NCBI GenBank assembly: GCA_037441385.1
Contig: JBBISH010000026.1
Coordinates: forward strand, 1 to 57,870
DNA: 57,870 nt
Direction: 5' to 3'
Origin: Myxococcales bacterium
Lineage (GTDB): Bacteria; Myxococcota_A; UBA9042
Shown: positions 6,001-12,000 of the stretch, in pieces
Layout: each line of letters opens with the position of its first letter
Numbering within the stretch: position 1 is the stretch's first letter
Made by a program: the position numbers

Positions 6001-9000
6001 GCTGGCACCGCTACCAGATGCCCGCCGGCACGTCGCAGGTGGTGGTCAGCCTGGCCCACACCCGCGGCAAAAGCATTGGCGGCCATATCCAGGGCCTGGG
6101 GCAAGGGCGGATGGACCTGCGCGGCGACTACGACGTGCACCCGCTGCTGCACGACCTGCTGGCCAAGAAGGTGCCAGAAACGGGCCTGATCTCGGTCTAC
6201 GCCGACCTGGCGCTGGACCGCACGCCCACGGCGGTGCAGACCTTTGGCAACGGCCAGCCGCTCGCGCCGCAGGCCCAGCAAGATGGCGCCAACCTGGTGA
6301 CGTGGCTGGCTTTTTCGAGTCCGCAGCCGTGGACGCTGAACGCCCATGTGTGCCTGTCGCTGCTGTCGCCCGAGCTGGCGCGCCACCACCGCGGCAAGGA
6401 GCTGCTGGGCAAGACGTTTGAAGACGTGCAGTACGAGCTGGAAAGTGCCTGGAATTCGTTGCTGAGTCGGGTGCGCTTGCCTACCGCGCCGCCGGCCGAG
6501 CTGGTGCGGTTCTACACCGCGCTGTACCACGCCATGTTGCAACCAGCCGATTACACGGAGGAAGGTCAGTTCTGGAACGGTGCCTTGGCCACTCCGGCGG
6601 CGCAGACCACTGGCGGTCGCCGCTTTTACACCGACGACTGGTGCATTTGGGACACGGTTCACACGGTACACCCGCTGCTCACGTTGCTTGCGCCCGAGCT
6701 GGTGGGCGACATGCTGCAATCGCTGGTGTGGATGAGCGGCCCAGAAGGCTACCTGCCCAAGTGCCCGTGGCACGCCAGCGGCGATTCGCGCGTGATGACG
6801 GGCAATTTCACGTTCTGCCTGTTGGCCGACGCCGTGCAAAAGGGCCTTACGCAGTTCGACGTGAAGGCTGCGTACGCCGTGGCCAAGCACGGCGCCCAGA
6901 GCGACTCGCAAAACTACGGCGACGCCGGCCTGTGCGGCTATCTGAACCAGGGCTCTCCGCCGTTTTACGTGCAAAATGGCTACGTTCCGGCCGAGTGTGA
7001 CGCCACGCAGGGCGCGTCGATGACCCTGGAGCACGCCTACTCGGATTGGTGCCTAAGCGTGGTGGCGCAGCAGCAGGGCGACCAAGCGATGGCGGCCGAC
7101 TTGGGCGTGCGCGCCCACAACTGGCGCAACACTTGGGGACCACACGGCTTCCCGCAGTTGCGCAAGGCCGACGGCACGTGGAAGGAACCGTTTGACCCCA
7201 AGGCGATGCCCGGCTTTACCGAAGCCAACGCCTGGATCTACCAGTGGACGGTGAGTCACGAGCCGCTGGCGCTGGCAATGCAGCTGGGCGGGATTCCGCA
7301 AGTGCTTGCGCGGCTAGATGAATTCTTTGACGGCGGCCACTTCGACATGACCAACGAGCCGGATTTCCACGCGCCCTGGCTCTACGCCGACTACGGCCAA
7401 CCGTGGAAGGCCAGCGCCCAAGTGCGCGCCCTGGTCAACCAGCATTTCACCACCGCGCCCAACGGCTTACCTGGTAACGACGACGCGGGCGCCACCTCGG
7501 CGTGGTTGGTGTTTGCGGCGCTGGGCCTCTACCCGGTCAACCCCGGCGACGGCACCTATACCTTGACGGCGCCGATGTTCGAGCGGATCGACTTCGACGT
7601 GGGGGGCCAGACCGTGCACGTGGTTGCGCCGGGCGCCGCCTCGCAGCCGCACATCCTTGCGGCCAAGTGGAACGGCAAGCCGCTCAAGGGGCCGCGGATC
7701 GCCCACAGTGCGCTGGTCCAAGGCGGCTGGCTGGAGCTGGAACTGACGAGCGGCACCAGCGCCTGGGGTGTACAGACCGCAAGTCAGTAGGTTGGCAGGG
7801 GTGCGTCCTCGCGTGCGCCATTGCCCAGTCGCCGGCCACCGGCTAGCCTGGCGGTAGCGCCTGTTGCGCGCTCGAGCCCGCCATGCCCGCCGCCGCCCAA
7901 GCACCTCGCGCCGCCCAGAAACCTGCCGCCACGCCTGCCCAAAAGCCGCAAGCCGGCGCATCTGCAGCCGCAGGTAGCGACGCCGCCCTGCGCGGCATGA
8001 ACTACCAGCAAGGCCGCGACGCGGTGAAACCACCGGCCGTGCCTGGCCTTCCGCAAAACGGGGCCGAGGCCCTGCAGACCGCGCAGAAGTCCGTGCGAGG
8101 CGGCAGCGTGGGCGCCACCCTGGACGAAGCGAGCACCGCCTACCGCGATCAAGATATCGAGGTCGTGTTCGACGCCGGCAGCAAGATGCAAGCCTCGCTC
8201 GGGTGGGGCGGCCTGCGTTTCTCGTGCGATCCCGGCATCTTGGTCAAGGTGCGCAACGCTCCCGACATCCGCATCCAGAGCATCGGCTGGAACTTCGACA
8301 CGGCCAAGTTCACCGCCGACGTGGCGTCGGACGGCATGGACCTGTTTGGCATCATTGGCAAAATCGGCAAGTGGAAGGTCGAGCAGGTCCTGGATCAGAA
8401 GCTGAAGCCCCTGTTGCCTGCCGCGGTCCAGCAGGCCGGCTACTCGCCCAACCGCGACCCGGATCTGGCTGGCACGGTCGGTCAAATGCAGAAGATGTTT
8501 GAGTTTTCTTCGGCGATGCCGGGGCAGGGCGGTGGCATGGCGGCCAAGCTCAGCGCGCCGTCGGCCAGCCTGGACGTCAGCATGCCAGAGGACTTTCGTG
8601 TCGACTTGGGCGACTCGGGCCTGGAGCTGGTCATTGCCCGCGGCACGCCGATCGACTTGGCGGCGCAGGGTGCCGGCAAGCTGGCTCAGCCGACCATCGA
8701 CCGCCTGTCCCTGCGCGCGGGCGACAAGGGGATCCAGGTTCGGCCCAAGCAGGGAACGTTCAAGGACTTCAAGGAGTTGGACCTACACGGCGCCACCATT
8801 CAAAAGGGCGGCGCGCTCTCGTTCGACTACGAGTTGAGCGCCGAGGGGGCGATCCAGGGGATCTTTGCCCTGGGCCAGTTGCTGGGCCTGGCGGCCGGCC
8901 AGCCCGTGTCGGGGCAAGTGCCAGATATCAAGCTGGATTCGATCCGCAAGGAGATCGACGCCAAGCTCCAGTCCGAAGTACCGCCGCGCTTCAAGCAGTT

Positions 9001-12000
9001 CTTGCAGCAATACGACGGGCTGGTGCCGGGCTTCTCGCTCAAGGCCCTCTTTGCTTAGTGATTAAGCCAGCTTGGCCAACGCGTCCAGGGCAGCGGCATA
9101 ATCCGGCTCTTGGGTGATCTCGGGCACGAGCTGGCTGTAGGCGACTTTGCCTTCGCCATCCAGCACGACGACCGCGCGCGCCAGCAGCCCGGCCATGCCC
9201 GACTCTTGCAGGCGCAGCCCGTAGGCTTGGCCAAAGCTCAGATCGCGCAGCTCGGACAGCGGCCGCACGTGATCCAGACCCTCGGCACCGCAGAAGCGCT
9301 TGAGAGCAAAGGGCAAGTCGCGGCTGATGCACAGGCAGACGGCCCCTTGGAACTTGCCGATCTCGGCGTTGAAGCGGCGCACGCTCGCGGCGCACACGGC
9401 GGTGTCGACGCTGGGGAAGATGTTGAGCACCACCGGATTTCCGGCCACGTCGCCCTTGCTGACGTCTTTGAGGTCCAGTCCGGTCAAACGAAAATCGGGG
9501 GCCGCTTGGCCCAGGGCGGGCAGGCTGCCCGAAGTGTTCACGGGGTTGCCGCGCAAAGTCACCGTTGCCATGTGCTGTCCTGGACGCGGCGTCAATTGCC
9601 GCGGTGCGTCACACTAGGCCAGCCCGTTCGCGGCGGCAAGGGGATCGCTCGCACCTTGGCGACATTGCTGTGTTTCACCACGCATATCCGGGGGTTGTCA
9701 CTTGCCGCTTGCAGTCCGACCCCTGCATCATTACAACTTTGTGACAGAGTGGGGCACGCGCGGGGGCGCGAGGGGTAGGGCATGTCGCTGCATCTTCGAC
9801 CAAACTTTTCGACCAAGGTCGCGCTCGATTCGGCTCAGGTGGCGCACGACCTGGAGCGCGCGCTGGATCGCCCCGACCTGGAGGTGCGCTGGTCGCGGCC
9901 GGCGGGCACGGCGCAGCGCAAGCACTTCGATCGGCTGCACGTACTGATCGCGCCGCGCGAGCGCCGGTTCTGGTCGCCCTGGCTCAACTTGGACTTGCAC
10001 GCAACAGCCGAAGGTGTGGACGCTTTTGGGCGATTCTCGCCGCATCCCAGCGTGTGGACCGGTTTTGCTGCGGCCTACTTGCTCCTGGGCTCGGTCAGCT
10101 TCTTTTCGGCGATTTTTGGGCTGTCGCAGTGGATGGTGGGCGGCGCGCCGTGGGCGCTTGTGGGGACTGCGATTTGCGCGGTCTTGGCGGCGCTGCTGTG
10201 GTGGACGTCGCTCATCGGTCAGCGGCTGGCGCGCACTGAAATGGCGCTTCTGCGCGAGATTGTCCAGCAGGCCCTGCCCCAGGCACCGACTCCGGTGCCG
10301 CTGGTGGCGATCATGGCGATTCCATAGGATCTACGCCGGCTTGCGATTGCGCTCCAGCAGCCAGTAGACCAGCGCCGCGATTCCCGTGCCGCTGAACCAT
10401 GCGTAGATGTACAGGCTATCCCACACGCCGGGCCCGCCGCTGATCACGTGAATTCCCTTGAAGAAACCCGGCAAGTTGGGCGCGATACCCAGCGCCAGGG
10501 CCACGATCGCCGAGCGGTTGTAGTGCCCGTAGCGGCCGCTGGCGCGGTACAGGTCGGCCACATCCAAATTAGTCTTGCGAATCAAGAAGTAGTCGGCGAT
10601 CAGCACGCCCGCCACGGGCCCCAGTAGCGCCGACACGCCGCCCAACCAGCCGCCCAAGTAGGTCGCCGGATCCTGCATCAATTTCCAGGGCATGCACAGG
10701 ATGCCCAGGATACCGGTGATCAGCCCGCCCGTCTCGAAGCTGATCTTCTTGGGCGCCAAGTTGGCAAAATCGTTGGCCGGGCTGACCACGTTTGCCGCGA
10801 TGTTGACCGACAGCGTCGCCACCACGATGCCAAACACCGCCACCACGGCCACCACCGCGCGCACCGCCGCGTCGGCGATCAAGGGCGCGCTCATGCCCTT
10901 GGGCGGCGAGGCCGAAGTCATCTGACCCAAAAGGAATTCAGGCTGCCACAGGTCCTTGAGGTCGGCCCCGGTCAGCACCGCCGCCGACGCCGACGTGATC
11001 ACCAGCGCCATCGCCGAGAAGGCGATCATCGTGGTTGGCAAGCCAAGGGTCTGGCCAAGCATCTGCTCTTTCTGGCCTTTGCCGTAGCGCGTGAAGTCCG
11101 GGATGTTCAGCGACAGGGTGGCCCAAAAGCCGACCATGGCGGTCAGCGACGGCACGAACACGGGCCAGAACTCGCCAAGACTCTTGAACTTAGACGGCTG
11201 GTCGAGCAGCGGCCCCGTGCCGCCAGCGCGCCCCACCACCCACCACAGCAGGCCCGCGGCCAGAACCAGCACGATTGGCGCGGCCCAATTCTCAAAAATC
11301 CGCACTGCGTTCATGCCCTTGTAGATGATGAAGATGTTCATCCCCCAAAACACCATGAAGGTGATGGCGCTTGGCAAACCCAGGCCGGCAATGGCGAAAT
11401 CGCCGCCCAGGCTCAGGTAGCCCGGCCAGAAGGTGCCCAGAAACGTCTTGATGGCCTCGCCGCCGATGTAGGTGTTGATGCCGAACCAACCGCATGCCAC
11501 TAAAGCCCGGATGATCGCAGGAATATTTGCGCCGGTGGTGCCGAACGACGCGCGCGCCAACACCGGGAACGGAATGCCGTACTTGGTGCCGGGGTGGGCG
11601 TTGAGCAAAATCGGCACCAGCACGATGAGGTTGCCCAGGCCGATGGTCAGGAGCGCCTGCCACCAGTTCATGCCGGCGGCGATGAGCCCGCCCGCCAGTG
11701 TGTAGGTGGGGATGCAGTGGGCCATCGAGATCCACAGCGCGGCGTAGTTGTAGGTGGTCCAGACGCGCCGACGCTGCGGCACAGGCGCCAAGTCGGGGTT
11801 GAACAGCGGCGATTGGGCAATGTCGGCCGGCAGTTCAGCCAGGGCCTCGGCGGCCAGGGATGGGTCGTGCATGGGCGGCTCCGCGGCAATGGCAGTCTGG
11901 GGTTGCAGCGGGGACCGTACCCTGCCGCAGCGCACCTGACAAGCGGGGCGCCCCAAAATGCCAACGCGTGCCTACTGTTGTCGGCCCTGCCGATGCTGCT

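What a model noticed while it worked through the whole genome (the two positions that open the first line are those of the whole stretch)
7883..9058. A short N-terminal motif LRGMxYxEGxxAVxP marks signal-less candidate cargo of the contractile injection system
Eight unlinked proteins with unrelated bodies and no signal peptide (C26:7883, C184:6486, C54:38897, C98:11451, C21:37632, C59:3383, C13:31617, C193:3475) share a polar leader ending in the motif LRGMxYxEGxxA(L/V)xP, about 50 residues from the start in seven of them. In relatives the motif heads DUF4157/eCIS_core, peptidoglycan-binding, muramidase, calpain, lipase and other domains and is found almost only in genomes with a contractile injection system (CIS). 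It is a candidate sequence-specific loading signal for CIS cargo encoded outside the CIS locus.
Evidence so far: Motif found by composition screen and HMM in this genome. A 31-sequence profile against 1.84 billion representatives gave 40 hits; in 37 the motif ends at residue 46-61. Pfam on 31 motif ORFs from class genomes: 8 eCIS_core, 3 PG_binding_1, plus calpain, glucosaminidase-LysM, M15-LysM, Tse3_N, lipase, kinase; more in call 218. Class: motif in 47 of 58 genomes with the ~1000-aa CIS baseplate, 2 of 13 without. Phylum sample: 7 of 20 CIS-tube genomes, 0 of 41 without. PMC11297309 (passages) states that no specific conserved sequence was detected in eCIS signal peptides; paper searches showed no such motif.
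(Added by a program. Inside this text positions count along the whole contig: contig position 1 is position 1 of the stretch shown here. "Call 12" and the like, gene names such as g00115 and contig names such as C1 are that model's own, and its searches are not shown. The text may have been shortened before it was handed on; [...] marks where a part breaks off. The agent that wrote the report below was given it as the finding of a first reader that could run no searches.)

Follow-up and report, generated by a model that had tools for sequence, protein, structure and literature searches.

The report
Shared address tag on injection cargo
Many unrelated toxin-like and cell-wall-attacking proteins in a group of uncultured myxobacteria carry the same 15-residue tag about 50 residues from their start, most likely the label that loads them into the cell's phage-tail-like injection syringe; such labels were thought to have no common sequence, but loading has not been shown.

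Summary
The motif is real. Eight unlinked genes encode a polar leader without a signal peptide, ending in a degenerate L-R-G-M-[SNG]-[YF]-x-[EDQ]-[GQ]-x-x-x-[LV]-x-P whose Pro lies at residue 45-59. A profile trained without their homologues ranks them 1-7 and 9 of 82,855 six-frame segments. In orthologues the motif is as conserved as the folded body while the leader is not. It heads 51 body clusters among 119 proteins (eCIS_core, calpain, muramidases, lipase, kinase, deubiquitinase, Ntox3), and 22 of 119 carry an eCIS_core-type HExxH. It occurs in 68 of 87 class genomes with eCIS_core against 1 of 20 without; outside the class in 3 of 26 genomes with the same CIS operon type against 0 of 185 without (E<=1e-3). 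Tad, T6SS and type III markers do not track it. Best reading: a lineage-specific recognition element in the CIS loading sequence, probably read by a class-wide single-copy Afp15-like ATPase. Against: no loading or binding data, few independent losses, many CIS genomes and eCIS_core proteins lack it, and gene linkage is rare. New variant of a known kind.

The parts
7883..9058 (+). Motif-bearing orphan gene, 391 aa, no signal peptide, no Pfam or NCBIfam match; candidate CIS cargo
   Evidence: 20 homologues at 46-95% identity
7883..7987 (+). Disordered polar leader, residues 1-35 (A/P/Q/K-rich, no L, I, V, F, W or Y in residues 2-34)
   Evidence: pLDDT under 50 for residues 1-33; 27% mean identity to orthologues
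7988..8032 (+). The 15-residue motif, residues 36-50; modelled at low confidence (pLDDT about 60) as short helix, turn, helix
   Evidence: 67% mean identity to orthologues against 63% for the body; present in all 12 homologues that include a leader
8060..9055 (+). Folded body, tentatively two TULIP-like (BPI/Takeout-type) lipid-binding lobes
   Evidence: model pTM 0.62; best matches Z 5.2-6.2 to juvenile-hormone-binding protein, Der p 7/Der f 7 and BPI; no Foldseek match at E<=0.001. Middling scores, a lead only

Best explanation
The motif is the sequence-specific part of the N-terminal loading sequence of cargo for this lineage's contractile injection system (CIS). SHOWN: motif, fixed position after a 30-45-residue disordered leader, no hydrophobic signal region, selective conservation, unrelated effector-type bodies, frequent fusion just upstream of eCIS_core, co-occurrence with one CIS operon type, and a single-copy Afp15-like AAA+ ATPase clade encoded away from the operon. 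A shared tag lets cargo genes lie anywhere on the chromosome.
For: Fusion: Pfam eCIS_core downstream of the motif in 5 of 22, 3 of 28 true hits and 5 of 18 proteins; 22 of 119 bodies have its HExxH within 220 aa, against 476 eCIS_core matches in 107 whole genomes. Of the 30 best eCIS_core loci, chosen without the motif, 8 have it by HMM and 5 more by eye. In AlgoCIS the disordered segment upstream of DUF4157 is required for loading, the AAA+ Alg15 is required, and the segment is proposed to be system-specific (10.64898/2026.05.27.728243). Bodies: calpain, Tse3_N, PG_binding_1, glucosaminidase-LysM, YkuD_2, Ntox3, kinase, lipase, UCH. 0 of 86 motif ORFs have a hydrophobic 12-mer above 1.8 in the first 70 aa, against 1812 of 4645 called genes; 71 of 86 have a Met 36-66 residues before the Pro, 19% expected. 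Class: motif in 66 of 87 CIS_tube genomes and 3 of 20 without, two of those three having gp19 tubes; 68 of 87 with eCIS_core and 1 of 20 without; counts correlate, Spearman 0.45 within the 87. Outside the class: 3 of 26 genomes with the operon's 513-aa marker and 0 of 185 without at E<=1e-3; the three carry the same operon; 9 of 9 new hits read in two of them are true. Linkage: two motif ORFs within 4 kb of an orphan CIS_tube gene (L124) and one 2.2 kb before the tube gene of a main operon (L138). ATPase: C133 falls in a clade with one copy from each of 20 other-family genomes; a proxy for it is in 64 of 69 motif genomes and 12 of 38 without (cut-off chosen after looking).
Against: No loading, expression or binding data. 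CIS-less class genomes are mostly two lineages (family f2, genus g28) plus single genomes, so there are about three independent losses, and genome size confounds the count correlation. 21 of 87 CIS_tube genomes in the class and 23 of 26 subtype genomes outside it have no motif hit; eCIS_core proteins read from G046, G047, G069 and G070 have other leaders. This genome's two eCIS_core proteins lack it; its signal-less calpain (C1:136446) keeps only the last residues and its muramidase (C3:126079) only a degenerate form. Linkage is rare: 1 of 12 main-operon or CIS_tube regions of other genomes, 1 of 6 orphan CIS_tube genes within 4 kb, and 2 of 40 ATPase regions, both picked because the proximity was already seen. 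In PVC no point mutation in the 50-aa signal affected loading (PMC9054023), and a 20-aa polar stretch suffices in Afp (10.1101/2023.11.13.566157), so the polar leader alone could do the loading here too.
Confidence: 0.55

Rival explanations
1. The proteins are CIS cargo, but loading depends on the polar leader as in PVC and Afp; the motif does another job, such as binding a holding chaperone or the small DUF4157 adaptor, or marking a cut or release site after injection.
For: Published loading sequences tolerate point mutation and lack a consensus. In Streptomyces a small DUF4157 protein links cargo to the tube initiator (10.1101/2025.11.06.686954), and a short conserved DUF4157 protein is widespread in this class. 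Likely cargo without the motif exists.
Against: The fixed distance from the N-terminus fits a tag that works together with the leader; the motif is kept both with and without eCIS_core in cis.
Confidence: 0.22
2. The motif addresses proteins to another, unidentified export or sorting route (including delivery to the producer's own envelope) that co-occurs with the CIS because both go with one lifestyle.
For: Few independent losses. Several bodies look like ordinary envelope proteins kept across families: TULIP-like C26, barrel-like C13, L,D-transpeptidase, beta-helix, FecR-like. Genes are mostly unlinked to CIS genes.
Against: Direct fusion to eCIS_core; the same CIS operon in all three outside-class carriers; Tad RcpC in 8 of 107 genomes, T6SS VipB in 0 of 6 motif-rich genomes, type III/flagellar export gate in 2 of 6. 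Type II, IV and VII systems were not tested.
Confidence: 0.18
3. The motif is a functionless relic spread by recombination between low-complexity leaders, or a profile artefact.
For: Leaders are A/S/P/G-rich; 4 of 32 library hits were repeat artefacts; the two weakest own matches score within the reversed-sequence range.
Against: Motif identity 67% and 50% against leader identity 27% and 20% in two orthologue families; 32 of 32 DNA-pattern matches in 185,579 genomes read as the motif in frame; narrow position range.
Confidence: 0.05

Closest known systems
AlgoCIS cargo loading sequence (Cgo1/Cgo2 N-terminal domain, ATPase Alg15; bioRxiv 10.64898/2026.05.27.728243)
   Same: Disordered N-terminal segment upstream of an optional DUF4157 and a variable C-terminal domain; a WHD-AAA+ ATPase of the Afp15 type in the genome; proposed to be system-specific.
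   Different: No motif was defined there (only some similarity within pairs). Here one 15-residue motif recurs on dozens of unrelated bodies, cargo and ATPase genes lie away from the operon, and loading is untested.
PVC N50 signal peptide with Pvc15 (PMC9054023, PMC11495950) and Afp18 20-aa NtSP (10.1101/2023.11.13.566157)
   Same: Polar N-terminal region of about 50 residues on signal-less effectors; length matches leader plus motif.
   Different: Those signals have rare conserved residues and tolerate point mutation; effector genes follow the operon.
PVC-metallopeptidase / DUF4157 / eCIS_core polymorphic toxins (PMC3482391, PMC11297309)
   Same: Constant N-terminal marker with variable toxin domains, often without immunity genes; shared domain types (UCH, glucosaminidase, kinase, lipase).
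   Different: The marker here is a short motif upstream of DUF4157 and present without it in about four of five proteins; it marks candidates far from the CIS locus, which locus-distance classifiers under-call.
Streptomyces SLP Sle1/Sle2 (10.1101/2025.11.06.686954)
   Same: CIS whose small DUF4157 protein may act as an adaptor in trans; cargo that reaches membranes.
   Different: Cargo is tape-measure-like and encoded beside the operon; no short motif reported in the passages seen.
T6SS effector markers (MIX, FIX, RIX) and Pup threading by the Mpa ATPase (both recalled, from no call)
   Same: An N-terminal marker shared by unrelated effectors; a bound helix plus a free disordered tail that starts threading.
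   Different: Those markers are whole domains of another machine; Pup is a conjugated tag for degradation. Analogies only.

Membership tests
eCIS N-terminal loading sequence | N-terminal, polar, disordered region of about 20-60 residues | tested here: met
eCIS N-terminal loading sequence | No Sec, Tat or lipoprotein signal | tested here: met
   no hydrophobic stretch in 8 of 8 own and 86 of 86 related ORFs by a Kyte-Doolittle window; starts chosen by a heuristic; no dedicated predictor run
eCIS N-terminal loading sequence | Genome encodes the CIS core (cap, sheath, tube, CIS_tube-LysM, gp25, baseplate J) | tested here: met
   C29:3065-21716, C198:3827-5833, tubes on C112, C14, C5
eCIS N-terminal loading sequence | Afp15/Pvc15-type AAA+ ATPase present | tested here: met
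   five paralogues, three with PF22977 WHD hits; one class-wide clade; no characterised Afp15 was in the tree
eCIS N-terminal loading sequence | Necessary and sufficient for loading into the tube | not testable with these tools
   needs purified particles and reporter fusions
eCIS N-terminal loading sequence | Recognised by the CIS ATPase | tested here: inconclusive
   co-occurrence 64 of 69 against 12 of 38; no direct test bears on it
eCIS-associated toxins near the operon (EATs) | Gene within about ten genes of the operon (88% of the training set in PMC11297309) | tested here: not met
   0 of 8 own genes on a CIS contig; few linked cases in relatives
DUF4157 / PVC-metallopeptidase toxins | eCIS_core domain upstream of the effector domain | tested here: not met
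   0 of 8 own proteins; met by 22 of 119 motif proteins overall
Tad/Kil, T6SS or type III substrates | The machine is present in motif-bearing genomes | tested here: not met
   RcpC 8 of 107; VipB 0 of 6; FHIPEP 2 of 6
TULIP superfamily (window protein body) | Long helix wrapped by a curved beta-sheet, BPI-like tandem | tested here: inconclusive
   Z 5.2-6.2, rmsd 3.5-6.2 over 110-141 residues

The most novel reading that the evidence does not exclude
A first sequence-specific loading code for a contractile injection system: a 15-residue tag read by one housekeeping AAA+ ATPase lets a single conserved CIS draw on 1 to 27 cargo genes scattered over the chromosome, including unusual cargo such as barrel-like membrane proteins and lipid carriers sent to the envelope of another cell; other lineages would use other tags still to be found.
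Probability: 0.4. Interest if true: 0.85.

Novelty: new variant of a known kind. Interest (0 to 1): 0.68.

Why it matters
A discrete motif with a candidate single-copy reader makes recognition testable by point mutation and binding assay. It also predicts cargo from sequence alone and away from the locus (302 matches in 69 class genomes), most with no known domain, and points to CIS-based antagonism in a large uncultured myxobacterial group in which no T6SS marker was found in the six genomes searched.

Tried and rejected
Complex prediction of the C133 ATPase alignment with the motif alignment gave no answer (score 0.02, mark 0.32): no evidence either way. No RNA run was listed for the window gene. 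No solved structure matches the motif profile. The protein atlas gave no usable hit for the window protein; for the first 70 residues of P0013 the third cluster (0.89, under the 0.9 mark) has eCIS_core on 35% of members, a lead only. No match of a looser DNA pattern in viral contigs. No shared upstream DNA element was apparent when 86 upstream regions were read by eye; no motif finder was run. ATPase neighbourhoods are not enriched in motif genes: 0 of 38 unselected windows. The C1 calpain segment that resembles the motif aligns by eye with a calpain-family segment, not the tag. G293 and G182 hits outside the class were judged false and doubtful; 12 other outside-class genomes with best E of 0.004-0.046 were not read, and about ten such hits are expected by chance. 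Large eCIS_core proteins lie beside their own ATPase paralogues (coordinates), but their N-termini were outside the loci read, so whether they lack the motif is open. Earlier findings of this scan: none on this motif. Literature searches that showed no such motif; the library lacks most subscription papers and no supplements were read, so a supplementary alignment showing it could have been missed.
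Full report
1. Observation. The window ORF 7883-9058 encodes 391 residues: a 35-residue polar leader, the motif at 36-50, and a body without Pfam or NCBIfam match. 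Its neighbours, a GH92 glycosidase and a convergent peroxiredoxin, are unrelated. With starts corrected for C13 and C193 the motif's Pro lies at 45-59 in 8 of 8 and none has a hydrophobic signal region. The title consensus is not matched literally by any of the eight; it is the consensus of the relatives (L84 R80 G85 M66, S/N/G, Y73/F27, x, E64, G79/Q21, x, A72, A76, L72/V28, x, P, in % of 86 windows; the pattern used to anchor them forces some of these columns).

2. More than chance. A profile from 68 windows of other genomes, after dropping 16 homologues of the eight and rows from four loci (L012, L043, L087, L142), ranks the eight 1-7 and 9 of 82,855 six-frame segments; the reversed control peaks at 15.6 and 10.9 bits. 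Against 1.84 billion representatives a 32-row profile gave 32 hits; 28 are single matches ending at residue 44-60, four are repeats. A DNA pattern over one genome per species (185,579) gave 32 matches, all reading as the motif in frame; 23 titles name Myxococcota, Myxococcales, Anaeromyxobacteraceae or Deltaproteobacteria, 7 are uninformative, and 2 say Enterobacteriaceae but are 65-69% G+C with bodies that cluster with the myxococcal ones. In orthologue families the motif is conserved like the body and the leader is not: 67/63/27% for C26 and 50/38/20% for C13. 71 of 86 ORFs have a Met 36-66 residues before the Pro, against 19% expected.

3. What the motif heads. 119 motif proteins fall into 51 single-linkage clusters; 22 have an eCIS_core-type HExxH within 220 residues. 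Pfam names eCIS_core, calpain, Tse3_N, PG_binding_1, glucosaminidase-LysM, YkuD_2, beta-helix, Ntox3, kinase, lipase, EF-hand and UCH; many have no match. In this genome C59 has a weak glucosaminidase hit, C54 a weak pyroglutamyl-peptidase hit and C193 EF-hand repeats. The window protein models as two TULIP-like lobes (pTM 0.62; Z 5-6) and C13 as helices followed by a long beta-meander resembling membrane barrels (pTM 0.38; Z up to 18.9 at rmsd 8.6); both are leads. Of 30 loci picked by eCIS_core score alone, 8 have the motif upstream by HMM and 5 by eye; one locus gave no readable ORF, two lacked the N-terminus, and most of the rest belong to conserved DUF4157 groups with other N-termini.

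4. The machine. This genome has a CIS operon on C29 (chaperone-like gene, sheath, tube, long low-complexity gene, CIS_tube-LysM, VgrG-like, gp25, 1012-aa baseplate J, P2_I-PASTA, a 513-aa protein, FHA, VWA-FHA), cap and main sheath on C198, and tube genes on C112, C14 and C5. The operon is syntenic in the five class genomes read, with sheath and tube about 85% identical and no ATPase inside. Five Afp15-like ATPases lie elsewhere. In a tree of 94 such ATPases (FastTree, midpoint root, supports not printed) C133 groups with the best hit of each of 20 genomes from other families, largely sorted by family, which suggests a vertically inherited single copy.

5. Co-occurrence. Class, 107 genomes: motif in 69 at E<=0.01; 66 of 87 with CIS_tube, 3 of 20 without, of which two have gp19 tubes and one is 67% complete; 68 of 87 with eCIS_core, 1 of 20 without; C133 proxy in 64 of 69 motif genomes and 12 of 38 others. 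The negatives are mostly family f2 and genus g28, so these are about three independent events. Phylum sample, 211 genomes outside the class: 73 have CIS_tube, 26 the 513-aa marker. With an 87-row profile that included seeds from them, G116 (8 matches), G253 (11) and G209 (1) are the only ones at E<=1e-3; all have the same operon, and 9 of 9 new matches read are true, in a variant with E-[EQ]-Q for E-G. So 3 of 26 against 0 of 185, while 23 of 26 lack a strong hit. Tad (8 of 107), T6SS (0 of 6) and the type III export gate (2 of 6) do not track it.

6. Linkage. Mostly none. One motif ORF followed by a TPR-like ORF lies 2.2 kb before the tube gene of G060's operon; two lie within 4 kb of one of six orphan CIS_tube genes, one of them with eCIS_core; two of 40 ATPase windows have one, both preselected; seven further CIS regions have none.

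7. Against necessity. G046, G047, G069 and G070 have many eCIS_core proteins with other leaders (28 of 59 matches fetched, plus two held earlier), though G042, scored negative, has a degenerate motif before eCIS_core. This genome has two further signal-less polar-leader ORFs, a calpain that keeps only the motif's last residues and a PF11860 muramidase with a degenerate form.

8. Mechanism. The motif sits where that segment ends. The model gives helix 32-36, turn, helix 41-47 at pLDDT about 60. I infer a bind-and-thread scheme: the helix pair docks on the loader, the 30-45 free residues start translocation, and the unfolded chain enters the tube. Which protein reads it is open; a small DUF4157 adaptor is a documented alternative (10.1101/2025.11.06.686954: passages). 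PMC3482391 and PMC6899500 were seen as passages and mention no such motif there.

9. Verdict. Observation confirmed with corrections; CIS link well supported but indirect; function as a loading signal about 0.55. It works like an eCIS loading sequence and meets the sequence and genomic criteria, but the defining experiment cannot be run here. Seven literature searches showed no description; supplements were not read. New variant of a known kind; interest 0.68.

Noticed in passing
G000 C13:31518-33494 (L006): Motif-bearing 658-aa protein without signal peptide that models as a long amphipathic beta-meander like an outer-membrane barrel and ends in Phe; relatives in at least two families of the class, motif kept in all that include the N-terminus.
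   Followed up: partly
G000 C29:3065-21716 and C198:3827-5833 (L008, L272): CIS operon type with two sheath genes, a 1012-aa baseplate J, P2_I-PASTA, an unnamed 513-aa protein, and FHA and VWA-FHA genes, without ATPase or recognised tail fibre; very conserved in the class and present in 26 of 211 other phylum genomes. May be membrane-tethered.
   Followed up: partly
G000 C112:6854-7285 and C14:41641-42072: Two orphan copies of the 143-aa tube gene with the same protein start, away from the operon; a third tube gene (C5:37285-38217) has a long Lys/Ala-rich N-terminal extension.
   Followed up: no
G000 C93:10669-11451 (L009): Short DUF4157 protein of a conserved group found across the class, with its own helical N-terminal pattern that loosely resembles the motif with one extra residue; candidate adaptor.
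   Followed up: partly
G063:C104, G059:C1, G062:C720, G064:C9, G061:C178, G060:C49, G065:C1: eCIS_core proteins of 2800-3900 aa lie within about 5 kb of their own Afp15-like ATPase paralogue, suggesting dedicated ATPase-cargo pairs; the family reaches 14 copies per genome.
   Followed up: no
G000 C8:80959-87651 (L174, L010): Afp15-like ATPase, a second divergent AAA gene and an eCIS_core gene lie together; the same trio occurs in G058 (L182).
   Followed up: partly
G000 C1:136446-137435 and C3:126079-126885 (L270, L271): Signal-less calpain and PF11860 muramidase with polar leaders and a lost or degenerate motif; likely extra cargo.
   Followed up: partly
G000 C21:37632-38441 (L004): Motif followed by a Lys/Glu/His/Ala-rich low-complexity body conserved within the genus; no enzyme domain, unexplained as cargo.
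   Followed up: no
motif ORFs in loci L013-L173: Short V-Q-[RML]-K-type words follow the motif within 40 residues in 36 of 86 ORFs and also occur in motif-less eCIS_core leaders; possibly a second, more general cargo feature.
   Followed up: partly
L127:16629 onward, L088, L090, L019: Motif heads proteins of over 1100 and up to about 2900 aa, three of them related and two with a Tse3_N hit.
   Followed up: no
P0001, P0002: Library entries that look like translated CRISPR arrays and score against the motif profile.
   Followed up: no
window 13032-15140 and 3268-5478: Cytochrome c maturation-like gene cluster and a double PilT-like ATPase, judged from the translations alone; ordinary.
   Followed up: no
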